Shown here piece after piece: positions 1-10,098 of a DNA stretch of 32,000 nucleotides. The stretch covers positions 1,380,001 to 1,412,000 of the forward strand of contig NC_020304.1 in the NCBI RefSeq assembly GCF_000341395.1, given 5' to 3'. Each line of letters begins with the position of its first letter. Position 1 is the first letter of the stretch. Both the position numbers and the translations under genes were made by a program. This DNA is from Desulfocapsa sulfexigens DSM 10523. GTDB lineage: Bacteria; Desulfobacterota; Desulfobulbia; Desulfobulbales; Desulfocapsaceae. The notes beneath the pieces were generated by a model. It was not told the origin of the DNA, did no database searches, and saw only the letters and a program-made list of their open reading frames with translations.

Positions 1-849
1 ACATCTTGAGAAACAGTGTGTATTATAGACCCAAATCGGTCAGCGAAAAAGACCTGCTGCTGATGCGGCAAATTGATGAGCTTCATTTGGAGCATCCATT
101 TATGGGAGCACGGATGCTCCGAGACCAATTGAACCGAGATGGTCTTTCAATTGGTCGCAAACATGTTGGAACCCTGATGAAGCGCATGGGAGTTGAGGCA
201 TTATACAGGAAACCTGGCACAAGTAAAAAGCATCCAGGTCACAAAATCTATCCCTATCTGCTGCGAGGAAAGATTATCGACCAATCCAACCAGGTTTGGG
301 CTCTGGATACGACATATATCCCAATGGCCAAGGGATTTGTCTATCTTACTGCTGTTGTTGACTGGGCAAGCCGGAAAGTATTGGCTGCTAAACTTGCAAT
401 AACCCTTGAAGCTTGCCATGCAGTTGATGTACTCAAGGAAGCCTTTACCCATCATGGCACCCCAGAAATTGTCAACACTGACCAGGGGAGTCAGTTTACC
501 GCAGAAGAGTTTGTCAAGGTAGTACAAGAGAGAGGCTGTAAGCTCAGTATGGATGGACGTGGGGCTTGGCGGGACAATGTATTCGTTGAAAGATTATGGA
601 GATCAGTAAAATACGAACGGGTCTATTTGCATGCTTATGATACAGTTAAAGAAGCTCGGAGGTCTATCATGCAGTACTTTGACTGGTATAACCGCTCAAG
701 ACCTCATTCCCAGTTAGGAAAAAGAACACCAGATGAGGCCTACAACATGATGCTACAGGCAGTTGAGAACGCAGCTTAATCAAAGGCAGAGGCTCCACTT
801 AAAAATGACAGAATACTGTTCAAACAAACTGAGCCACCTCTCTGGTCAT
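1..849 (+). mobile_element. IS3-family insertion sequence, right-hand portion. The left part lies outside the window and the right boundary is approximate.
   Basis: Contains the orfB-type transposase ending at 779. About 70 bp of non-coding tail ends in ...GGTCA (847-849), matching the TG...CA termini usual for IS3-family elements. The boundary is inferred, because the left IR is not available for comparison. Confidence 0.6.
3..779 (+). CDS. IS3-family transposase OrfB (rve / DDE integrase core), 5'-partial at the window edge
   Basis: The frame is open from the window edge. The DDE triad context is 'WALDTTYI', 'VNTDQGSQF' and 'FVERLWRSVKYE'. The C-terminal 'YNRSRPHSQLG' is typical of IS3 OrfB. 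Confidence 0.92.
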   Translation: MLRNSVYYRPKSVSEKDLLLMRQIDELHLEHPFMGARMLRDQLNRDGLSIGRKHVGTLMKRMGVEALYRKPGTSKKHPGHKIYPYLLRGKIIDQSNQVWALDTTYIPMAKGFVYLTAVVDWASRKVLAAKLAITLEACHAVDVLKEAFTHHGTPEIVNTDQGSQFTAEEFVKVVQERGCKLSMDGRGAWRDNVFVERLWRSVKYERVYLHAYDTVKEARRSIMQYFDWYNRSRPHSQLGKRTPDEAYNMMLQAVENAA

Positions 850-1291
850 ACTCTATGGAAGTATCTACAATCCATGGATGAATGTTAATAGCATCTTTCT
901 GATCCGAAAGTTTGAGCTTTGCTTGTAGATTAGCATCATTTACGATGGCCTGAGCCATTGCGTTTTCTTTCTGTCTGAGCTGCTGTGAAGCCTTTCTCAA
1001 CGTTGTGGTTCGATGGATCCAGGCATCCTGTTTAGTCTTTCTGATATATGTCGATTTTACCTCTAAGACTAGAAGATGATTATCCATATAGCAAAGGAGA
1101 TCTACTTCACCTGGATCTTTACCGTTTACCAGATCTGGCTGATAGGAATGAACCACAGCAAACCCTTTGCTTCTAAAAAGATCGCCTAAACGTGACTCGA
1201 TACGATCAGTCTCGCCTTTCCGACCTTTGCGTCGACAGCCAATTCTACGTAAATTATTGATGGCAGCGGTTGAGTTGTTCTGGGATGCCAT
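776..1291 (-). CDS. PD-(D/E)xK (NERD/Mrr-like) nuclease-domain ORF. The C-terminal ~24 codons are read from the IS3 end. It may be the C-terminal part of a frameshifted larger gene, since the frame is open up to 1540.
   Basis: The motif 'GEVDLLCYMDNHLLVLEVKS' gives D (1100-1102) and E-x-K (1055-1063) after the helix 'ESRLGDLFRSKGF'. An internal ATG at 1291 has no good SD. The same frame stays open upstream to 1540 and overlaps the end of ORF 1365-2834. Confidence 0.6.
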   Translation of the reverse strand: MASQNNSTAAINNLRRIGCRRKGRKGETDRIESRLGDLFRSKGFAVVHSYQPDLVNGKDPGEVDLLCYMDNHLLVLEVKSTYIRKTKQDAWIHRTTTLRKASQQLRQKENAMAQAIVNDANLQAKLKLSDQKDAINIHPWIVDTSIEYDQRGGSVCLNSILSFLSGASAFD

Positions 1292-1364
1292 CAACCATGG
1301 TAGCTGAAAACCATATTTCCCGAGTTTAATGATCGGATTTTCATTTAATTCAGGTGTTGGTGAG

Positions 1365-2834
1365 TTAGGTGATTTTTTTAAGAATATCGGAAAGTTCTTG
1401 AAGATCGTTAGTCCAGAAATCCAATATAGCCTCAGCCATCCTGATATCACCATCTGGATCCGAATCGGTAACCATCCATGACTTGATTCTCTGTGCTTTT
1501 TCCTTTGGTCCCGCCCATGTAAGAGGGAAACGATTCTCACCGGTTTTTAGGCCTTCTATCATAAGCTGAGAAAGAGCACTGAGCCAATGACCTGAGTCCT
1601 GCTGAAACTCTTGGAACCTTCCAATGTATGAAACATTAAAAAAAGCTGTCATGAGCTCAAGAGAGTGTATAGCCTTGAACAGGTCTACCTGCGTACCATC
1701 CGGTAATGAAATAACCGGATCCATACCGTATATCTCATCCAATTGAAGATACACCTGAATAGCCTTGATGTGCGCCAAGCGATTGGACATTTCATTTTCA
1801 GGCAATCCAGATGGTTGACTCGGCAAATCAGAATTGAAATATTGGATTACTGCCCTGTTGAACCAATAACGATGCAGTGCTGATAATTTTCTGCCATTGA
1901 AATCCCATTCTGACTCCTCAGGTATTTCAATAGGGTATAGCGTTAAATGCTCGCCATCAAATTTATAGCGGTAATCATCGTCCAGACAAAACTCAAAAAT
2001 TGTCAGGTGCAATAAATCATTACGCTTTATTACAGCAGCGACTAGCTTACTGAACACCTCAAGGTTCTTGAGGCTTAAAGAGGGAGATCCTTCTCCAGGT
2101 AACAACATTGGTATTAAATGGCACTTGAGAGATTTTGCCAAAAATCTTTCATTAAGCTTTAGATCATTCTCACCTCTTGATTTCAGCTTCCACATCAAGA
2201 GTTCACTCAAAGCATCCCAAGCGCTTTGATGCAGTTCAATCCATTCGTCGTCGATCATTGATAAATGGAATCTTTCAGGTACGAGATTCTGGAAGGTGAA
2301 TAGACTTGCGTACAAAAGATATTCGAATATTGTCAAATCATCCAGTTGCCTCTGAAGACCAGCGATAGTTTTGTCACATGAGTACAGTTCAGTATGTAAC
2401 CGTTGACAAACGATCAGAAAATCTAGGAAATCTTTATTTCCGTTGTTTGGCAATGACAAGATTTGCTTCCATGGCGGTGAATCAGGTTGAAGAAAAATTT
2501 GAGAATATCTCACACCTCGCTTCAGCGTTTCTGGAGCTTTGAGGAGTAAATCTTTAAATAGTGTTGCGTCTTCAAGGCCGTAATGGAGGGAGCGTCCTAA
2601 TGCAAATGCGACAACATCTGATGAATAAAAGGCATCAGGTAGAGTTCGCCAAAAATGACATTGCCAGAGTGCAGATGATCGAACTTGAGGGGTGTATCCT
2701 TTTTTTACCGGTTTTTCGTCAAGGTAGAGGTGGGCACATGAGTCTACAGCCTGCTCCAAAGAATTGCGGGATTTTAGAGTCTCTTCAAAATGTTTCTGAT
2801 AGGCCTGCCGGCAAAGCTCAGCCTCATTATTCAA
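1365..2834 (-). CDS. Uncharacterised protein (489 codons as tracked). Its native ATG is separated from the body by the IS4 insertion, so it is probably a pseudogene or disrupted gene.
   Basis: Long uninterrupted ORF with no P-loop, HExxH or other motif I recognise. The tracked start is a TTG inside the IS4 target duplication. With the IS removed the frame continues to ATG at 4100-4098, preceded by an in-frame TAA at 4124-4122. Confidence 0.65.
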   Translation of the reverse strand: MNNEAELCRQAYQKHFEETLKSRNSLEQAVDSCAHLYLDEKPVKKGYTPQVRSSALWQCHFWRTLPDAFYSSDVVAFALGRSLHYGLEDATLFKDLLLKAPETLKRGVRYSQIFLQPDSPPWKQILSLPNNGNKDFLDFLIVCQRLHTELYSCDKTIAGLQRQLDDLTIFEYLLYASLFTFQNLVPERFHLSMIDDEWIELHQSAWDALSELLMWKLKSRGENDLKLNERFLAKSLKCHLIPMLLPGEGSPSLSLKNLEVFSKLVAAVIKRNDLLHLTIFEFCLDDDYRYKFDGEHLTLYPIEIPEESEWDFNGRKLSALHRYWFNRAVIQYFNSDLPSQPSGLPENEMSNRLAHIKAIQVYLQLDEIYGMDPVISLPDGTQVDLFKAIHSLELMTAFFNVSYIGRFQEFQQDSGHWLSALSQLMIEGLKTGENRFPLTWAGPKEKAQRIKSWMVTDSDPDGDIRMAEAILDFWTNDLQELSDILKKIT

Positions 2835-2837
2835 AAT

Positions 2838-4088
2838 CAGTGCTGTCTCATAGTTGACTCCACAATAAAAGCTGTGGAGAAACAGGTTGCTGTTTGTCTG
2901 GCGGCCTAAAAAGATCAGTCAGTGCGCGTCGTTCAAACAGGTTAAGTTGTAAAACTCTTAGTATTTGCTGCATGGATGCACCCAATTTGGCTTTGAAATT
3001 GAGATATGCAATCAGCAGGTAGACACACAATGCTATCCAGACTTGGGTAAGTACCGCGTTTCTTGATGTACCCAAGAATGTTTTTATTTTGAGGTTTTGC
3101 TTGATCCATTTGAAGAATTGTTCGATCTGCCACCGCTCTTTGTAGATTGCCGCAATTTCAGCAGCTTTTAGATGGTGAGCATTTGTGACAAAACGGTATT
3201 CTTGACCAGTTTCCAGATCAGTATAAGCAACAAGCCGAAGTGGACCTTTAATACCCTTGAGTTTGATTTGCTGATCGTTAGTAACACCAGGACTTTTTCT
3301 ACCAGCTCGCTTAAGGAGGTATTCAACATCAGCATTGCTTTTTAATCGAGTAACGAAGAAGATCCCGTCTTTCATGAGAGAGGAATACCAGCCATAATCT
3401 GTAAATCCTCGGTCAAAGACAGCGAATGACCCTTTGGGAAGTTTGAGTGTTTCTTTTGCCCAATTGATTTCGTGGACTTTGCCATCGGTCATGTCCATAA
3501 AGGTAGGGAGATAGCCGTCTGAATCTATGCCCATATGGAGTTTGATAGCACCTTTTCTTTTACGGAATTTGGCCCAGGGGAAGACAGAAAGGCAAAGATC
3601 AATAGTTGTTGTATCAAGTAGGTACAGCTTGTTTTTGAAAGAAAACTTATGACCTGGTGTCACTAGTTGGCACTTTTCCAACAGATCAAAGAAGACAGTT
3701 TCGAAAAGAGATGCAGGCTGTTTCTCATTCACTCGTGCCAGCGTGGCCCGTGAGGTCTGTTTCATGCCGAGATGATATAAGCGACGTTGCTGTGCCTTCA
3801 AATTATCGGTGATATCACGAAGACTTTTTCTACCAGAAAGTTGTCCTATCAGCATTGCCATGAACTGGCTCCAGCGGTTATAGGACCTGAATTTCTGGCC
3901 TGAATGATGAGATTCAGCATGCTTGTCAAAATCATGTCTATTGATAAGTGAAGTAATTTGACTAAGAATTGTGTTATAATATGCCATGGCTCGGATCTCC
4001 TTGTGTTTAATGGCTTTTTGGTCGAATTCATTATAACACAAAGGGCTCTCCGAGCCTCTTTTTATTGACTAACTATGAGACAGCACTG
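2838..4088 (-). mobile_element. Complete IS4-family insertion sequence (1251 bp)
   Basis: Perfect 18-bp terminal inverted repeats: CAGTGCTGTCTCATAGTT at 2838-2855 and its reverse complement at 4071-4088. Flanked by a 9-bp direct duplication ATTCAAAAT (2829-2837 and 4089-4097). Carries a single DDE transposase ORF. Confidence 0.9.
2848..3987 (-). CDS. IS4-family DDE transposase
   Basis: ATG at 3987 with AAGGAG 9 nt upstream. The N-terminal 'MAYYNTILSQITSLI...HHSGQKFRSYNRWSQFMAML' and 'LYLLDTTTIDL', 'FDRGFTDY', 'YKERWQIEQFFKWIKQ' are typical of IS4-type (DDE_Tnp_1) transposases. The stop codon lies inside the terminal IR. Confidence 0.9.
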   Translation of the reverse strand: MAYYNTILSQITSLINRHDFDKHAESHHSGQKFRSYNRWSQFMAMLIGQLSGRKSLRDITDNLKAQQRRLYHLGMKQTSRATLARVNEKQPASLFETVFFDLLEKCQLVTPGHKFSFKNKLYLLDTTTIDLCLSVFPWAKFRKRKGAIKLHMGIDSDGYLPTFMDMTDGKVHEINWAKETLKLPKGSFAVFDRGFTDYGWYSSLMKDGIFFVTRLKSNADVEYLLKRAGRKSPGVTNDQQIKLKGIKGPLRLVAYTDLETGQEYRFVTNAHHLKAAEIAAIYKERWQIEQFFKWIKQNLKIKTFLGTSRNAVLTQVWIALCVYLLIAYLNFKAKLGASMQQILRVLQLNLFERRALTDLFRPPDKQQPVSPQLLLWSQL

Positions 4089-4295
4089 ATTCAAAATCAT
4101 TAAAATGTGGCCGCTCCAGGCTTACTCACCAGTAACTCGATTTCTTAATATATTTTTTACAGTAGGCCATCTCTCATACCGCCATTTTCTCTTTTGACAC
4201 TTGGGATCTGTACCTGCTCCACTTTTCAATAATTCTGACTTTAACGTTAAGGCTACAAAATCGGCCGAACTATCACATAACATGCGGAGATAAAG

Positions 4296-5276
4296 TCAGT
4301 TAACAACGACCTGCCAGTCAACCATTGCCAGTCTTTCTCGAATTTGCGCAAGGGTTGCCAACAGTTCTTGCTCATCAGGTAAATTACCATAAACCAGTCC
4401 ACTAAAATCATTTGTATATGTCGACTTAAGTTGTTGCCAGCAACCTTCAACATCCATAAAAATCAAAGCTTCTGCTGGGTGATGGACCAACCACTCGTTA
4501 TTGTTTCTAAAGCTCACGACATCATCTTGCGCGACCTTACAGATAAATTGCTCAAATTCACTCGAATTGAAAAATGTTTTCAGTTCACCATCCCTGAGCA
4601 TCCTATGCAAGTCATAAATATGGCGAATCTTCATTCTCAAGTCATCTATGGGATTCGCACTGTAGGAAAATCGAACCAAACTCATTATTTTCTCACACAG
4701 CGTCCTCGTCAACTCAAGGGCATATACTTGAAAGGGTAATAAGGCATATTCAGCAGCCATATCTTCCTGGCCGCGCTCAACCATCATATCGTAAATATAT
4801 GAAGATACCCGCCGAGGGCTATAAGGCTCATAATAACCAAACCATGTGGCTTCAACTACAATCACATCCCTGACTTGACCAAAAATACCCGGGCAGGTTA
4901 CAGGATAACGGTGAGCAGTCTTACGATTCATACCCATTTTTCTTGTCAAACCTTCCAGCTCAACTTCAGGCAACAAGAGATTCACGACCTGGCCAATCTT
5001 CCTTATCTTTTTTTTCAGTTGGTTGTCAGTTTCTTCTTCGTCATGCTTAACCACTAAATCAATATCTTCTGAAAAACGTTCAATAATGCCAAAACATTTC
5101 GAGAGAGCAGTCCCACCTTTAAAGACAGTATGCTCCCCAATAGAATCCTGAAAAACAGCACGTAAAACGTATGTCACCCAGTAATCTTTCTCGATAAATA
5201 TCTCTGGAATACTCAACATTTCAGACGTTGCAGTTACTGCCTGTCGGAAAAGACGTTTGTCTTCATGCAGTCTCAT
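4296..5276 (-). CDS. abiEii: AbiEii/AbiGii-family nucleotidyltransferase toxin (DUF1814)
   Basis: Hallmark motif 'FKGGTALSKCFGIIERFSEDIDL'. ATG at 5276 overlaps the upstream stop by 4 bp (ATGA). An alternative ATG lies at 5288. Confidence 0.88.
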   Translation of the reverse strand: MRLHEDKRLFRQAVTATSEMLSIPEIFIEKDYWVTYVLRAVFQDSIGEHTVFKGGTALSKCFGIIERFSEDIDLVVKHDEEETDNQLKKKIRKIGQVVNLLLPEVELEGLTRKMGMNRKTAHRYPVTCPGIFGQVRDVIVVEATWFGYYEPYSPRRVSSYIYDMMVERGQEDMAAEYALLPFQVYALELTRTLCEKIMSLVRFSYSANPIDDLRMKIRHIYDLHRMLRDGELKTFFNSSEFEQFICKVAQDDVVSFRNNNEWLVHHPAEALIFMDVEGCWQQLKSTYTNDFSGLVYGNLPDEQELLATLAQIRERLAMVDWQVVVN

Positions 5277-5998
5277 TTGATACACCACTCAGACGCTGAA
5301 GAAAACACACCAGAAACCCCTGGAATTTTATAGATTGTGATGGGATTTAACGATTTCCTTAGCTTCTCTGTAAGTCTCACTTTGCCCAAACTATCCAAGA
5401 TAACTCCAAGTAAAGCTCTCGTTGAGGGGGGATATTTTAATGCCAGCCGAACCAATACCTCCAACTCTTTTTCAGATAACTTTGACATTAAGCTCTGTAT
5501 AACCTTACAGCTCCGATCTGTTTTCGAGTCAGGTATTTTTTTTATAAACCGCAAGACATCAAGCAGCTGCAGGAGGGGGATATTTTCTCTCGTGATTGTA
5601 TTTTTCTGTTTAACAAAAGAAATACTATATTTCCCACGCTTCATTGAGGAACGAACCTCGTTCTTGCCAATCTGGATGGTATTGCTCACCTGAGTTGTCA
5701 AACCCAATGTGTTATAAATACTAAGACCAGTCAGATAACCTTCCACTCGCCCATCACGTTCAAGCAAATCCTTGACTACTTGATATTGGTTAGGTGGAAG
5801 CTCACCAAAAGGAGATTGTTCTGGCTTATAATATTTACCCTTAGCAAGTTTTGCGATTTCTCCAGACGCAGCAAGTCTATTCAAAGCTTTAATCAAGCCC
5901 TCCTTGCTCTCTACCATGTCGACAAAATCGATAAAGGTAAAGACATAACCTTTGGCGAATCTAGCCACCTTAGACCTTATGATGTCAGATATATTCAT
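5273..5998 (-). CDS. abiEi: AbiEi-like antitoxin / transcriptional regulator (DUF6088-type)
   Basis: The N-terminus 'MNISDIIRSKVARFAKGYVFTFIDFVD...ALNRLAASGEIAKLAKGKYYKP' resembles the winged-helix N-terminus of AbiEi/DUF6088 proteins. It is translationally coupled to the downstream AbiEii gene. Confidence 0.75.
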   Translation of the reverse strand: MNISDIIRSKVARFAKGYVFTFIDFVDMVESKEGLIKALNRLAASGEIAKLAKGKYYKPEQSPFGELPPNQYQVVKDLLERDGRVEGYLTGLSIYNTLGLTTQVSNTIQIGKNEVRSSMKRGKYSISFVKQKNTITRENIPLLQLLDVLRFIKKIPDSKTDRSCKVIQSLMSKLSEKELEVLVRLALKYPPSTRALLGVILDSLGKVRLTEKLRKSLNPITIYKIPGVSGVFSSASEWCIK

Positions 5999-6005
5999 AA
6001 TAAAA

Positions 6006-6057
6006 AGAATAGCACCACAAATGATTAATGTCCAGTTTTTATCGCTAAAAACTGGAC
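6006..6057 (-). promoter_or_regulatory. Putative abiE promoter with an operator-like palindrome
   Basis: On the minus strand: -35 TGGACA (6034-6029), a 17-nt spacer, -10 TATTCT (6011-6006). A palindrome with perfect 12-bp arms, GTCCAGTTTTTA-TCGC-TAAAAACTGGAC (6030-6057), overlaps the -35. There is no obvious SD before ATG 5998. Confidence 0.35.
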
Positions 6058-6087
6058 GGTTGGATGGTGATTAGTTGGTGTAGGTGA

Positions 6088-6109
6088 ATTGTTACACCAT
6101 TGTTACACC
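6088..6109. repeat. Perfect tandem duplication of the 11-mer ATTGTTACACC, with an inverted GGTGTA half-site just upstream
   Basis: ATTGTTACACC occurs at 6088-6098 and again at 6099-6109. GGTGTA, the reverse complement of TACACC, lies just before it at about 6077-6082. Confidence 0.85.
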
Positions 6110-6488
6110 AAACAAAACAAGATCATTTTCCTCCGCATTGGTGGCAAGTGGTAGGCGATTAGCCGGGGGCAAAGGCTCATAGAAATTAAGAAACTTATAA
6201 AAGACATGACATTCAATCTGAAACGGCGATGCCCAGCCTTCGGATGGTGGCATTTTGACATGACGGCATAACACAATACCGTCAAATGTTAATAACTGCA
6301 TATTCCAGACGATTCCGGCCACCGATTCCAGAGTAAACCGGCCACTCATTCCACGTGATTCCGGCCACCGATTCCATTTCATTCCGGCCAGTGATTCCAG
6401 AGGAATCCGGTCACCCCAAATAGGGAGTAGCGACGCATAGAACCAACTGGTAGAGAGTGCCTTTTTGAATAAAATTCAAGGAGGGCTC

Positions 6489-8042
6489 ATGCCGAAGAAG
6501 AGGTTATCTATGCGAAAAATTAGAGAGGTACTACGACTCAAGTATGAACTTGGGCACAGTAACCGTGAAATTTCCCGTAGCTGCGGTATTGGCAGCAGCA
6601 CGGTAAGTGACTATTTACAACGAACCAAAAGAGCAGATCTGGGTTGGCCCCTTCCTGACGACCTAAGCGACAGCAGCCTTGAACAAACCCTTTTCCCTCC
6701 ACCGCCTCCACCGGGGACAAGCCGGCTAATTCCAGATTTCTCTGAGATCCACAAAGAGCTCCAATCCAAACGAGGGGTTACCCTGAACCTGCTGTGGCAG
6801 GAATACAAAGAGCAGCATCCTGACGGCTACCAGTACAGCTGGTTCTGCCATAGTTACCGGGATTGGGCCGGCAAGCTTGATCTGGTCATGCGCCATGAAC
6901 ACCGAGCCGGTGAGAAACTGTTTGTCGACTACGCAGGCCAAACCGTCGATGTCGTTGACCAACACACCGGAGAAATCACAAAGGCTCAGGTCTTTGTTGC
7001 GGTCCTTGGTGCCAGCAACTACACCTATGCTGAGGCCACTCCCAGCCAGAAGATTGAGGATTGGATCGGTTCACATGTCCGTACATTTGCTTTCCTGGGT
7101 GGGGTTCCGGAAGTTGTCGTTCCAGATAACCTGAAAAGTGGCGTCACAAAAGCCTGCCGTTACGAACCTGACCTTAATCCCACTTATCATGATCTGGCCC
7201 GACATTATCAAACCGTGGTGCTGCCTGCAAGGGTTAGAAAACCAAGGGACAAGGCCAAGGCTGAGGCCGGTGTATTGCTGGTGGAACGCTGGATTCTGGC
7301 AAAACTCCGTAAACATACTTTCTTCAACATTGACGATCTCAATCGCGAAATAGGCAAACTCCTTGAGCAACTGAACAACAAGCCTTTCAAGAAGTTATCC
7401 GGCAGCCGTAAAAGTCGCTTTGAAGAACTGGACAAACCTGCCCTGAAACAACTTCCAGCCAGCCCTTATGAATTATCCTACTGGAAAAAGGCCACTGTAC
7501 ATATCGACTATCATGTGGAGGTCGAGGGACATTACTATTCCGTTCCATATAACCTGGTCAAAAAACAGATTGAGGTGCGCTATACCAAAAGCACGGTTGA
7601 GTGTTACTTTCGTGGTAAACGGGTGGCCAGTCACATCCGGGAGAATCAACGAGGGCACCACACTACCGTCAAAGAGCATATGCCTGTCAACCACCGAAAG
7701 TACATGGAGTGGAATCCGGACAGGTTCAAGCGCTGGGCTGCCAAGGTCGGGCCGGAGACACTCTGCCTCACAGAGACGCTTCTTGTAAAAAGAGCTCACC
7801 CACAACAGGCCTATCGCACTTTGCTGGGCATTCTCCGTCTTGGCAAAGCCTATGGAGATTCACGCCTTGAGGCAGCATGCCATCGGGCCCTGCATATCAA
7901 CGCCCTTTCTTACCGCTCAGTGGAATCCATACTCAAAAGCGGCCTTGATCAGAAGCCACTACCGAAGCCGGCTACAGAGGACAAGCCGGTTAATCACGCA
8001 AATATCCGTGGCTCTCAGTATTATTCTCCCTCAACCCACTAA
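6489..8042 (+). CDS. istA: IS21-family transposase IstA
   Basis: ATG at 6489 preceded by AAGGAGG. N-terminal HTH 'REISRSCGIGSSTVSDYL' and a DDE core region 'LFVDYAG...'. The gene order with istB supports the call. Confidence 0.92.
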   Translation: MPKKRLSMRKIREVLRLKYELGHSNREISRSCGIGSSTVSDYLQRTKRADLGWPLPDDLSDSSLEQTLFPPPPPPGTSRLIPDFSEIHKELQSKRGVTLNLLWQEYKEQHPDGYQYSWFCHSYRDWAGKLDLVMRHEHRAGEKLFVDYAGQTVDVVDQHTGEITKAQVFVAVLGASNYTYAEATPSQKIEDWIGSHVRTFAFLGGVPEVVVPDNLKSGVTKACRYEPDLNPTYHDLARHYQTVVLPARVRKPRDKAKAEAGVLLVERWILAKLRKHTFFNIDDLNREIGKLLEQLNNKPFKKLSGSRKSRFEELDKPALKQLPASPYELSYWKKATVHIDYHVEVEGHYYSVPYNLVKKQIEVRYTKSTVECYFRGKRVASHIRENQRGHHTTVKEHMPVNHRKYMEWNPDRFKRWAAKVGPETLCLTETLLVKRAHPQQAYRTLLGILRLGKAYGDSRLEAACHRALHINALSYRSVESILKSGLDQKPLPKPATEDKPVNHANIRGSQYYSPSTH

Positions 8043-8062
8043 AACAAAAAGGAAACGATAAA

Positions 8063-8800
8063 ATGCTTCTGCATCCAACACTTGAAAAACTCACAACTCT
8101 TCGATTCACCGGCATGGCCGCAGCACTCCAGGAACAGATGGACATGGACACTGCAGATAACCTGGGTTTCGAAGAACGCCTCGGTCTGTTACTTGACCGC
8201 GAGCAGGCGGTCAGGGAAACCAGAAAACTTCAGACCAGACTCAGAAAGGCAAAGCTGCGGCAGGATGGCTCAATCGAGGATGTAGACTTCCGTCATCCGC
8301 GTGGTCTGGATAGGTCACTGGTAACCAGGCTGGCTGACTGCAACTGGATAAAGGAACATACCAATCTGCTTATTACCGGCCCCACTGGAGTCGGCAAATC
8401 CTATCTTGCCTGTGCCTTGGCCCAAAAGGCATGCAGAGAAGGCTATAGTGCTCTCTATCTCCGTCTGAGTAAACTCTTTGAAGATCTGGCTCTTGCCAAG
8501 GGGGATGGCCGTTATCTGAAGTTACTGACTGTCTATTCAAAAACAGATCTATTGGTACTTGATGACTATGGACTGGCCACACTCAACCAGGAGCAACGCC
8601 ATGATTTACTAGAAATACTGGAAGACAGACACGGCCTCAAATCTACCTTGGTAACCAGTCAATTACCGGTAGAGCACTGGCATGAGCGGATCGGAGATCC
8701 GACTTTAGCCGACGCCATTCTTGACCGTCTGGTACATGCCGCTCACAAAATCAAACTGAAAGGAGAATCTATGAGAAAAAAGAAAGCACGCTTGACGTGA
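8063..8800 (+). CDS. istB: IS21-family helper ATPase IstB
   Basis: Walker A 'GPTGVGKS' and Walker B 'LLVLDD'. Sits immediately after istA. Confidence 0.93.
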   Translation: MLLHPTLEKLTTLRFTGMAAALQEQMDMDTADNLGFEERLGLLLDREQAVRETRKLQTRLRKAKLRQDGSIEDVDFRHPRGLDRSLVTRLADCNWIKEHTNLLITGPTGVGKSYLACALAQKACREGYSALYLRLSKLFEDLALAKGDGRYLKLLTVYSKTDLLVLDDYGLATLNQEQRHDLLEILEDRHGLKSTLVTSQLPVEHWHERIGDPTLADAILDRLVHAAHKIKLKGESMRKKKARLT

Positions 8801-8931: not shown

Positions 8932-9999
8932 TCACTGGAATACGCACTTATGCTTGCCTTCCATGTATTCCTTTGAGCCAAATAGGTTCTGGAGGTCTTC
9001 ATTTGTATACTCTTGCCGCTCCTGATCCGCTCTTTTTTGACTTTTTATCTGGAGCCCTTCTGCTGGATTGTATTGCATGTGTCCATTACGAACAGCGTAG
9101 TTAAACAATCCGCTCAATCGTCTGATATATTTATTGATGGTATTAACAGTAAGAGTCTTCTCAGGCCGAGAATCAATGATCTCTGCGACAGTTTTTCCTT
9201 CGTATCTCGACCCCTTGTTCAGGTTTGGTGGCAATTGCATAAGTATGGATTTATATTCTGTCATTACCTTTCTATCAATTTGCTCCACAGGCAAATCACC
9301 CACAATTCTCATAAACAAGGTAAAAATTGTAAGGTTCTCAGCTTTTGTCTTTTCTGTCCAGTTACCTCCCTTTTCCACTTCAAGTATATAGCTCTCCTCA
9401 ACTTCAGAAAAAGCACTATATTTTGTAGCGTTTAGATTAATGGAACTGCCTTGGAGAATGTTGCGAGGTTTTTTAAATGAAGATGTTAATCCTTCGTCTA
9501 TCAGTTCACAGCAAGCTATTTCACCTCCCACAAGGAGCTTCACTTTTCGCAGGATATTTTGAATATTGTCCTTTGGTGAATGGCTGTTTGAATCAAAATG
9601 CTCCATGGAATCCAAAAGTTGAGTCACAAGCATCAGAATTTCATTATCTTCAGAGACCTCTTCCTTATTGGCAACTTTGGTACCTACGGTTTTAGAAGGA
9701 TGGAACCTGCAATATTCATCCTTTGCCAAGGTATCGCCAATATACTCTTTTACCAAATGCTGAATTTTTTCCTTTGTGAAATTAATGACATTGGTACGAA
9801 TATTCATGAATAGCTGGCGTAGATAGGTAGCAATACAGTTTGCTCGATGCTTAGCTATTCTCGAAATCCCAGTACGAAGGGAATATCTGAACTCACCTTT
9901 ACCGACAACTACTCTTAAATCATTTGGTATACGTATTCTGAAAATGTAACCAGAAGGACTCTGATACATGTACGTTGGACTAGAAACAGAAAAACCCAT
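8932..9999 (-). pseudogene. int: Tyrosine recombinase (phage/island integrase, DUF6538-type N-terminus), truncated by IS21 before the catalytic domain
   Basis: ATG at 9999 with GAGAGG upstream. N-terminal 'YIFRIRIPNDLRVVVGKGEFRYSLRT' and core-binding-like 'INKYIRRLSGLFNYAVRNGHMQYNPAEGL'. The start of the catalytic region is 'YTNEDLQNLF'. The last 4 codons plus the stop (8932-8946) are IS21 sequence. No R..HxxR..Y catalytic motifs are present. Confidence 0.8.
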
Positions 10000-10098
10000 C
10001 TTTATAACCTCTCGTTCATTACCTTGTGGATAATGTGAGTGGATAAAGATAGGTTTCAATGCCCTGAAATCATATTTTACATAATGATTTCAATACTT

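What the first reader, a model, noticed from the sequence alone, without database searches (positions are those of the whole stretch)
776..4100. IS-shattered candidate defence gene next to AbiE: large uncharacterised region plus a NERD/PD-(D/E)xK nuclease domain
**Position.** On the minus strand, directly downstream of abiEii (a 195-bp gap, then the IS), two same-direction reading frames together span about 2.06 kb.

**Upstream part.** The 489-codon part (1365-2834) contains nothing I can assign. I see no Walker A, HExxH or convincing HEPN motif, and no TM segments.

**Downstream part.** This frame carries a clear restriction-endonuclease-fold signature, 'GEVDLLCYMDNHLLVLEVKS' (D at 1100-1102, E-x-K at 1055-1063). 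It is preceded by an 'ESRLGDLFRSKGF' helix, as in NERD/Mrr-type domains.

**Why it looks defence-related.** A large unknown, sensor-like region fused or coupled to a nuclease effector is a recurrent logic of single-gene anti-phage systems. The genomic context fits too: an integrase-associated ssrA island, adjacent to an Abi/TA module and surrounded by IS elements.

**State of this copy.** It carries three independent lesions (see the separate findings). That pattern is what one would expect if the gene is costly or autotoxic.

I cannot match the N-terminal region to any described family from memory, so this is my best candidate for an undescribed system.
Basis: partly seen in the sequence, partly recalled or inferred. 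Interest (0 to 1): 0.8.

Follow-up and report, generated by a model that had tools for sequence, protein, structure and literature searches.

The report
Broken copy of ZwsA defence nuclease
This is a recently inactivated copy, hit by two insertion sequences and a frameshift, of a stand-alone nuclease gene whose Pseudomonas relative (ZwsA) was reported in a 2026 preprint to protect bacteria from RNA phages, so the defence guess was right but the gene family is not new.

Summary
**Observation.** It is confirmed at every coordinate. A minus-strand gene starts at ATG 4100-4098 and carries three lesions:
- a 1251-bp IS4-family element (2838-4088, 9-bp target duplication) after codon 4;
- an extra A in the tract 1373-1379, where close relatives have A6;
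- loss of its last 63 codons at an IS3-family element (junction about 842).

**Repaired protein.** It matches about 730-aa intact proteins over their first 667 residues (89% identity to the closest). The NERD / PD-(D/E)xK domain is real, with E548, D580, E593 and K595.

**Family.** It is not undescribed. The repaired protein is collinear with the 716-aa P. aeruginosa NERD protein (38% identity, E 5e-154). That protein matches published ZwsA (Zowangsin; bioRxiv, April 2026) in length, in catalytic residues E535/D567/E580/K582 and in its PA4040/PA4041 locus. [quoted passage not shown]

**Other results.**
- No neighbouring gene is conserved across 82 loci; the surroundings are mobile and rich in defence or toxin-antitoxin genes.
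- The N-terminal 490-aa helical domain has no Pfam, PADLOC or PDB match and occurs only in this architecture.

**Verdict.** A pseudogenised new member of a recently described defence family; moderate to low interest.

The parts
4089..4100 (-). Original start of the gene: ATG (4100-4098) plus codons 2-4. Positions 4089-4097 are the first copy of the 9-bp target-site duplication ATTTTGAAT.
   Evidence: There is an in-frame TAA nine codons upstream. Intact homologues begin at the same point (P0001 aa 1).
2838..4088 (-). IS4-family insertion sequence, 1251 bp. Perfect 18-bp terminal inverted repeats at 2838-2855 and 4071-4088. Transposase ORF at 2848-4041(-).
   Evidence: inverted repeats, 0 expected by chance; DDE_Tnp_1 1.5e-31, DUF4372 8e-30; same junction in an independent run.
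2829..2837 (-). Second copy of the target-site duplication ATTTTGAAT. The TTG inside it (2834-2832) is the apparent start of the 489-codon ORF.
1382..2828 (-). N-terminal all-alpha domain of the ZwsA-family protein (about aa 8-489). Fold unknown; putative sensor or substrate-recognition region.
   Evidence: 88.5% identity to P0001 aa 1-489. (AF2 pLDDT 91 and 89; helical, with two small beta-hairpins). (no PDB fold match, best E 0.87). (domain found only in this architecture).
1373..1379 (-). A7 homopolymer carrying a +1 A frameshift. It ends the upstream frame at TAA 1365-1367 and moves the nuclease domain into another frame.
   Evidence: relatives L013 and L006 have A6; frame switch from -1 to -2.
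1229..1282 (-). Most conserved block of the family, QNNSTAAINNLRRIGCRR (aa 520-537). A basic helix just before the nuclease core; inferred to contact nucleic acid.
   Evidence: invariant Q520, N528, N529, R531, R532, R537 in 75 sequences; helix 522-534.
866..1228 (-). NERD / PD-(D/E)xK nuclease domain (aa 538-658). Catalytic E548 at 1196-1198, D580 at 1100-1102, E593 at 1061-1063, K595 at 1055-1057.
   Evidence: (equivalent to ZwsA E535/D567/E580/K582). (Hjc and other PD-(D/E)xK fold matches). (Hjc profile alignment across the E...D...ExK region).
842..865 (-). Last retained codons (to aa 667). The final 63 aa of the family, including invariant K674, F711 and W726, are missing.
1..841 (+). End of an IS3-family element that truncates the gene (transposase orfB 6-779). 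The ORF read-through at 776-841 is IS sequence, not gene. The exact boundary is uncertain by a few bases.
   Evidence: rve 2e-20, rve_3, HTH_21; homology break.

Best explanation
The locus is a pseudogene of the ZwsA (Zowangsin) family, a stand-alone anti-phage nuclease of about 716-770 aa.

**Architecture of an intact protein.**
- an N-terminal helical domain of about 500 aa, found only in this family;
- a strongly conserved basic linker (QNN...NNLRRxGxRR);
- a NERD-type PD-(D/E)xK nuclease with an E...D...ExK active site;
- a helical tail of about 70 aa.

**Reported mechanism (preprint, P. aeruginosa).** The protein acts alone. It cleaves genomic RNA of ssRNA phages (PP7, MS2) but not lacZ mRNA. 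It blocks ssRNA phages but not the DNA phages tested, and this depends on the four nuclease residues.

**Inferred here, not shown.** The N-terminal domain and the basic linker select the substrate, and the NERD core cuts it.

**State of the Desulfocapsa sulfexigens copy.**
- An IS4-family element separates the promoter and first four codons from the rest of the gene.
- A +1 frameshift uncouples the nuclease domain.
- An IS3-family element has removed the conserved C-terminal tail.

This copy therefore has no defence function now. Inactivation was recent: all 44 retained family-invariant residues are intact, and dN/dS against a 90% relative is 0.19.
For: **Reconstruction.** The repaired protein is 89% identical to the intact 730-aa P0001 and 64-69% identical to many proteins of about 730 aa, at 98-100% coverage of the 671-aa reconstruction; the last 63 aa of those proteins have no counterpart here.

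**Link to ZwsA.**
- The preprint gives a 716-residue subunit, 82.4 kDa, a NERD domain, catalytic E535/D567/E580/K582, stand-alone organisation, and loci between PA4040 and PA4041 or in cDHS1.
- The P. aeruginosa proteins P0155, P0132, P0152 and P0143 are 716 aa and 81.7-82.0 kDa. They carry E, D, E and K at exactly positions 535, 567, 580 and 582.
- P0155 lies beside dxs-ispA-xseB, the PA4044-PA4042 region (gene numbers from my own knowledge of PAO1), in an AlpA/BrxR/SNF2 island.
- Repaired window protein against P0155: 38% identity, collinear over aa 8-665, E 5e-154.

**Active site.** It is invariant across 75 homologues and intact in the window copy.

**Stand-alone gene.** The commonest neighbour cluster occurs in only 7 of 82 loci. 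Neighbours include ParDE, HigB, HicAB, PIN, BrxR, type I RM, OLD-TOPRIM plus UvrD, Mrr and ICE genes.

**Distribution.** 203 of 185,579 species representatives carry a relative, patchily across Desulfobulbales and the Beta- and Gammaproteobacteria.

**Lesions.**

**Recent decay.** dN/dS 0.19, dS 0.21.
Against: - The preprint gives no accession or sequence for ZwsA. The identity with the P0155-type protein is inferred from length, residue numbering, species and locus, not from a sequence match.
- The computed mass (81.7-82.0 kDa) is slightly below the quoted 82.4 kDa.
- The RNA-endonuclease mechanism rests on one unreviewed preprint, in which the K582A mutant kept partial cleavage in vitro.
- At 38% identity the Desulfobulbales clade could differ in target.
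- The preprint's VHS, DUF647 and S4 domain labels get no Pfam support at E <= 1e-3 on P0155.
- The A7/A6 difference could in principle be a homopolymer sequencing error in the reference genome. Unlike the IS junction, I could not confirm it in an independent run.
Confidence: 0.85

Rival explanations
1. Same family, different job. The Desulfobulbales clade (and perhaps the family in general) is a DNA-targeting, abortive-infection or restriction-like nuclease, as for most NERD and PD-(D/E)xK defence proteins and for Upx. On this reading, specificity for RNA phages is a property of the Pseudomonas clade or of the assay.
For: - The only significant PDB fold match of the full model is Upx (9wuf, E 8.5e-5). 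Upx is a single-protein ssDNA exonuclease and terminase sensor.
- The next-ranked fold matches (not significant, E >= 0.08) include DNA enzymes such as R.BspD6I, McrC and Hjc.
- ZwsA was challenged with only two DNA phages.
- ZwsA K582A kept residual RNA cleavage.
Against: - ZwsA cleaved PP7 and MS2 RNA but not lacZ mRNA, and protected only against RNA phages.
- The N-terminal domain alone shows no similarity to Upx.
- No family member hits a PADLOC Upx model.
- All catalytic and linker motifs are invariant between clades, which suggests the same chemistry.
Confidence: 0.12
2. The gene is a third component of the adjacent AbiE (AbiEi/AbiEii) module rather than an independent system.
For: It has the same orientation as abiEii and lies 196 nt downstream of it.
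Against: - Across 82 homologous loci no neighbour family is shared by more than 7 loci.
- None of the eleven annotated neighbourhoods of homologues in other genomes contains AbiE.
- ZwsA works alone when cloned.
Confidence: 0.02
3. It is a housekeeping DNA-repair or recombination nuclease (Holliday-junction-resolvase-like, YraN-like), as some database names suggest, and its loss here is incidental.
For: Sources label homologues 'Holliday junction resolvase-like predicted endonuclease' or 'YraN family protein'. There are weak profile matches to Hjc.
Against: - It is present in only about 0.1% of species representatives, with a patchy distribution.
- It lies in islands, ICEs and defence hotspots with variable neighbours.
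- The Hjc similarity is limited to the roughly 60-aa catalytic core at E about 0.1.
- There is an experimental defence phenotype for ZwsA.
Confidence: 0.01

Closest known systems
ZwsA / Zowangsin (Zws system), P. aeruginosa; Bae et al., bioRxiv 10.64898/2026.04.06.716636 (April 2026)
   Same: - Same architecture and near-identical length.
- Collinear end-to-end homology (38% identity, E 5e-154 against the P. aeruginosa 716-aa protein).
- Same catalytic E/D/E/K with identical spacing.
- Stand-alone gene in horizontally acquired islands next to other defence genes.
   Different: - The host is in a different phylum (Desulfobacterota rather than Gammaproteobacteria), and identity is only 38%.
- This copy is a pseudogene with three lesions.
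- Nothing is known about phage targets in this host.
- The identity of published ZwsA with the P0155-type protein is inferred, because the paper gives no accession.
NERD domain (Pfam PF08378) / PADLOC PDLC02906 'Viperin-associated NERD'
   Same: The C-terminal aa 538-658 pass the Pfam gathering threshold. 65 of the 66 full-length family members in alignment A2 hit PDLC02906, best E 2.4e-24.
   Different: Only the nuclease core matches (model positions 412-503 of 542). The N-terminal 490 aa match nothing.
Upx (single-protein PD-(D/E)xK defence; cryo-EM 9wuf; PMC13099982, PMC13601566)
   Same: - Single-polypeptide logic: a large non-enzymatic region plus a C-terminal divergent PD-(D/E)xK nuclease.
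- It is the only significant PDB fold hit of the full-length model (E 8.5e-5, probability 1.0).
   Different: - Upx is about 1,245 aa, has an extra N-terminal nuclease-like domain, senses phage terminase and degrades ssDNA.
- TM-scores are low (0.24 and 0.17).
- The N-terminal 489 aa of this family alone do not hit Upx.
- No sequence or HMM similarity was found.
Hjc / YraN-type minimal PD-(D/E)xK nucleases
   Same: The catalytic core E...D...ExK aligns.
   Different: Those are stand-alone housekeeping or viral enzymes of about 120-140 aa. Here the core is embedded in a defence protein of about 730 aa.

Membership tests
ZwsA (Zowangsin) family | Single polypeptide of about 716-770 aa, collinear homology over the whole length | tested here: met
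   The repaired protein aligns over aa 8-665 with P0155 aa 6-652 (38% identity, E 5e-154). It is 89% identical to the intact 730-aa P0001.
ZwsA (Zowangsin) family | NERD catalytic residues equivalent to ZwsA E535, D567, E580, K582 | tested here: met
   E548, D580, E593 and K595 are present in the window copy and invariant or near-invariant in 75 homologues. The P. aeruginosa members carry E, D, E and K at exactly 535, 567, 580 and 582.
ZwsA (Zowangsin) family | The published ZwsA is the P. aeruginosa 716-aa NERD protein used here as reference | tested here: met
   Indirect, because the paper gives no accession. The match rests on the 716-residue subunit, the four residue numbers, the island beside dxs-ispA-xseB matching the PA4040/PA4041 locus, and mass (81.7-82.0 kDa computed against 82.4 kDa quoted).
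ZwsA (Zowangsin) family | Stand-alone gene in genomic islands or defence hotspots | tested here: met
   No conserved neighbour in 82 loci. Neighbours are TA, RM, BrxR, Gabija-like and ICE genes. In the window it lies in a tmRNA-associated island next to AbiE.
ZwsA (Zowangsin) family | Selective cleavage of ssRNA-phage genomic RNA and protection against ssRNA phages | not testable with these tools
   Known only from the preprint, for the P. aeruginosa protein.
ZwsA (Zowangsin) family | Intact, expressible ORF | tested here: not met
   IS insertion after codon 4, a +1 frameshift at codon 489, and loss of the last 63 codons including invariant K674, F711 and W726. This makes it a pseudogene member.
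NERD (PF08378) | Pfam HMM score above the gathering threshold | tested here: met
   23.6 bits against 22.1, aa 538-658, model positions 1-109 of 111.
Upx | Match to the Upx family model or sequence; about 1,245 aa with N-terminal, middle and C-terminal domains | tested here: not met
   - No Upx model appears among the PADLOC hits of 67 members.
- No PDB sequence hit to 9wuf with the family profile.
- All full-length relatives seen are 772 aa or shorter.
- The only link is a Foldseek hit of the full model, which the N-terminal domain alone does not reproduce.
Shedu (DUF4263) / other named single-gene nuclease systems in PADLOC | HMM match to the system's protein | tested here: not met
   Pfam and PADLOC scans give only NERD, plus marginal hits to the PD-(D/E)xK core of Cas4, MkoA, CARF-PDDEXK, HamA and LmuA in a few members.
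AbiE system (as an extra component) | Conserved linkage to AbiEi/AbiEii | tested here: not met
   No neighbour cluster is shared by more than 7 of 82 loci. No AbiE was seen in the annotated neighbourhoods of other homologues.

The most novel reading that the evidence does not exclude
ZwsA-like proteins form a compact family with a fixed architecture. Their N-terminal domain of about 490 aa would be a new fold that reads out a viral nucleic-acid or protein signature. The family would be distantly related, through its C-terminal half, to the terminase-sensing nuclease Upx. The Desulfobulbales clade (38% identity to ZwsA) would then recognise a different trigger from the Pseudomonas protein. That would extend single-protein sensor-nuclease immunity, possibly against ssRNA phages, to anaerobic sulfur-cycling bacteria.
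Probability: 0.2. Interest if true: 0.55.

Novelty: new member of a known kind. Interest (0 to 1): 0.3.

Why it matters
For this genome the result is an annotation correction. The 'hypothetical protein' of 489 aa and the unannotated downstream frame are the remains of one ZwsA-type defence gene, broken by IS activity in a decaying tmRNA-associated island.

For the field, the comparative results are modest additions to a family known so far from a single preprint:
- It occurs in at least 203 species, across Desulfobulbales and the Beta- and Gammaproteobacteria.
- Its architecture is invariant and it has no partner gene.
- It has a sharply conserved basic linker motif in front of the NERD core.
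- Its N-terminal domain has no detectable relatives in Pfam, PADLOC or the PDB.
- Its only significant structural neighbour is Upx.

Intact close relatives such as P0001 (89% identical) would allow a test of whether defence against RNA phages extends beyond Pseudomonas.

Tried and rejected
- **Upx relationship at sequence level.** The full-length model hit Upx. I then modelled the N-terminal 489 aa alone and found no PDB match.
- **Getting Upx sequences for a profile-profile test.**
  - The supplementary table stores only the first ~400 aa of each.
  - A protein search with that fragment returned only partial proteins.
  - Searches of E. coli genomes and plasmids found nothing.
  - The comparison therefore could not be made.
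- **Lost 3' end beyond the IS3.**
  - The window starts inside the IS.
  - Look-ups of the 489-aa ORF and of the 330-aa AbiEii ORF were not on record.
  - The 326-aa AbiEii form retrieved only a 2.7-kb contig identical to the window.
  - That contig confirms the IS4-family junction but does not reach past the IS3.
- **Viral structure library (BFVD).** No significant match.
- **NCBIfam.** Nothing meaningful.
- **PDB sequence search with the family profile.** Only marginal Hjc hits.
- **Literature.** Searches for other descriptions of this NERD family found only the ZwsA preprint.
- **Autotoxicity as the reason for three lesions.** Rejected for lack of support. Most homologous loci are intact, and ZwsA expression is reported as benign.
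Full report
**1. What is in the sequence**

The window comes from the Desulfocapsa sulfexigens chromosome. The 489-aa ORF is 100% identical to an NCBI 'hypothetical protein' of that species, on a 3.99-Mb contig. A minus-strand gene begins at ATG 4100-4098, with an in-frame stop nine codons upstream. It lies 196 nt downstream of abiEii.

The gene carries three lesions.

- **IS insertion after codon 4.** A 1251-bp element occupies 2838-4088.
  - It has perfect 18-bp terminal inverted repeats. These are the only two matches in the window, against none expected by chance.
  - It has a 9-bp target duplication, ATTTTGAAT.
  - Its transposase hits DDE_Tnp_1 plus DUF4372, which marks the IS4 family.
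  - The same junction appears in an independently assembled sequencing run (L091).
- **Frameshift.** The tract at 1373-1379 is A7, whereas the two closest DNA relatives have A6. tblastn with an intact homologue changes frame exactly here.
- **3' truncation.** Homology stops at about 842, at residue 667 of 730. An IS3-family element (transposase 6-779) begins there.

**2. The repaired protein and its family**

I deleted the IS plus one duplication copy and removed one A. This gives a 671-aa reading frame, of which the first 667 aa are gene-derived.

- It is 89% identical to the intact 730-aa protein P0001.
- It is 64-69% identical to many proteins of about 730 aa from Desulfobulbales.
- It is 35-40% identical to proteins of 715-770 aa from Beta- and Gammaproteobacteria. 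In every case 94-100% of the 671-aa reconstruction is covered; the last 63 aa of the homologues have no counterpart here.
- In one genome per species, 203 of 185,579 species encode a relative.

Domain searches gave the following.

- Pfam finds only NERD, at 23.6 bits against a cut-off of 22.1, over aa 538-658.
- PADLOC finds only the NERD core of model PDLC02906.
- NCBIfam finds nothing meaningful.

An alignment of 75 homologues shows invariant E548, E593 and K595, and near-invariant D580. It also shows a striking invariant block, QNN...NNLRRxGxRR, just before the nuclease core.

The AlphaFold2 model of P0001 is confident (pLDDT 91, pTM 0.89). It consists of:

- an all-alpha region of about 500 aa with two small hairpins;
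- the basic linker;
- an alpha/beta PD-(D/E)xK core;
- a helical tail.

**3. The family has been described: ZwsA**

A literature search for NERD proteins in phage defence found a preprint: Bae et al., April 2026, doi 10.64898/2026.04.06.716636. It reports Zowangsin (ZwsA) from P. aeruginosa. According to the preprint:

- ZwsA is a stand-alone NERD-domain protein of 716 residues and 82.4 kDa.
- Its catalytic residues are E535, D567, E580 and K582.
- It lies between PA4040 and PA4041, or in the hotspot cDHS1.
- It blocks the ssRNA phages PP7 and LeviOr01, but not two DNA phages.
- It cleaves PP7 and MS2 RNA but not lacZ mRNA in vitro.

The paper gives no accession number, so I tested the link indirectly.

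- The family has abundant P. aeruginosa members of exactly 716 aa and 81.7-82.0 kDa.
- These carry E, D, E and K at exactly positions 535, 567, 580 and 582.
- One of them, P0155, lies in an island next to dxs-ispA-xseB. This is the PA4044-PA4042 region by my own knowledge of PAO1 numbering. BrxR, SNF2 and type I RM genes are nearby.
- The repaired window protein aligns collinearly with P0155: 38% identity, aa 8-665 against 6-652, E 5e-154.

I take the assignment as very likely, at about 0.9.

**4. Stand-alone gene in mobile and defence contexts**

I called ORFs crudely in 82 homologous loci and clustered them all against all.

- No neighbour family is present in more than 7 loci.
- Annotated neighbourhoods include an ICE, with a T4SS coupling protein, SSB, DUF932 and RadC. 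They also include BrxR/WYL, SNF2 helicases, type I RM, an OLD-TOPRIM plus UvrD pair (Gabija-like), Mrr, and many toxin-antitoxin pairs.
- In the window, the gene sits in an island bounded by smpB and tmRNA. The island also holds an integrase fragment, IS21, and an AbiEi-like/AbiEii pair. The rest of the window is housekeeping.

**5. The N-terminal region**

- The 489-aa ORF, modelled alone (pLDDT 88.7), has no PDB fold match; the best E-value is 0.87.
- A scan of 1.84 billion representative proteins finds only 179 clusters at E <= 1e-3.
- Every full-length hit among the best 150 is 700-772 aa, with the domain at its N-terminus, so no alternative fusions were seen.
- The preprint's VHS, DUF647 and S4 labels get no Pfam support at E <= 1e-3 on P0155.

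The full-length model's only significant PDB hit is Upx (9wuf, E 8.5e-5). Upx is a single-protein terminase-sensing ssDNA nuclease.

- The TM-scores are low.
- The N-terminal domain alone does not reproduce the hit.
- No sequence or HMM link exists.

I record this as an unresolved possible distant relationship through the nuclease region.

**6. State and history of this copy**

- All 44 family-invariant residues within the retained part are intact. Three others (K674, F711, W726) lie in the lost tail.
- dN/dS against the 90%-identical relative L006 is 0.19, with dS 0.21. Most divergence therefore accumulated under purifying selection, and inactivation is recent.
- Other Desulfobulbales copies are also damaged. 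L012 has a 1.4-kb insertion at residue 462, and L015 lacks residues 1-344.
- L006 has two frameshifts, but these may be long-read sequencing errors.
- Most of the 82 loci are intact.

I see no evidence that decay reflects autotoxicity. The preprint reports little effect of ZwsA expression on the host transcriptome, and this island is generally full of insertion sequences.

**7. Verdict**

The interpretation as a defence gene with sensor-plus-nuclease logic is supported. The claim of an undescribed system is not: this is a pseudogenised, phylogenetically distant member of the ZwsA family.

The mechanism, direct endonucleolytic attack on ssRNA-phage genomes by the NERD core, comes from a single unreviewed preprint on the Pseudomonas protein. 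For the Desulfobulbales clade it is inferred. A DNA-targeting role remains a minority alternative.

Noticed in passing
model of P0001 (homologue of window 842-4100): The only significant PDB fold match of the full-length family model is the anti-phage protein Upx (9wuf, E 8.5e-5). The N-terminal 489 aa alone do not hit it, and there is no sequence or HMM similarity. A distant ZwsA-Upx relationship through the nuclease half is possible.
   Followed up: partly
window 8932-10059 (-), next to IS21 at 6465-8800: The integrase ORF beside the tmRNA gene shows only N-terminal integrase domains (DUF6538, Phage_int_SAM_5) and no catalytic domain. It abuts an IS21 element (istA/istB), so the island's integrase is probably truncated as well.
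   Followed up: partly
L012 10001-13612; L015 10001-11158: Other Desulfobulbales copies of the same gene are also damaged. One has a 1.4-kb insertion at residue 462, and one lacks the first 344 residues.
   Followed up: partly
L089 7207-14327 (Aromatoleum evansii): Here an intact family member lies between an Mrr_cat/zinc-ribbon nuclease gene and an OLD-TOPRIM ATPase plus UvrD helicase pair (Gabija-like). This is a compact defence cluster.
   Followed up: no
P0155 (P. aeruginosa ZwsA-type protein): The VHS, DUF647 and S4 RNA-binding domains named in the ZwsA preprint get no Pfam hit at E <= 1e-3. The AF2 model of the homologue shows only helices after the nuclease core, so those labels look doubtful.
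   Followed up: partly
window 5273-5998 (-): The gene upstream of abiEii matches DUF6088 (9.7e-16), not the classical AbiEi Pfam family. It overlaps abiEii by 16 nt, as expected for an antitoxin-toxin pair.
   Followed up: no
L091 (Logan assembly of SRR25712206): A 2.7-kb contig from an unrelated public sequencing run is 100% identical to window 3607-6325, including the IS4-family junction. The same strain, or a very close one, was therefore sequenced again with the insertion in place.
   Followed up: yes
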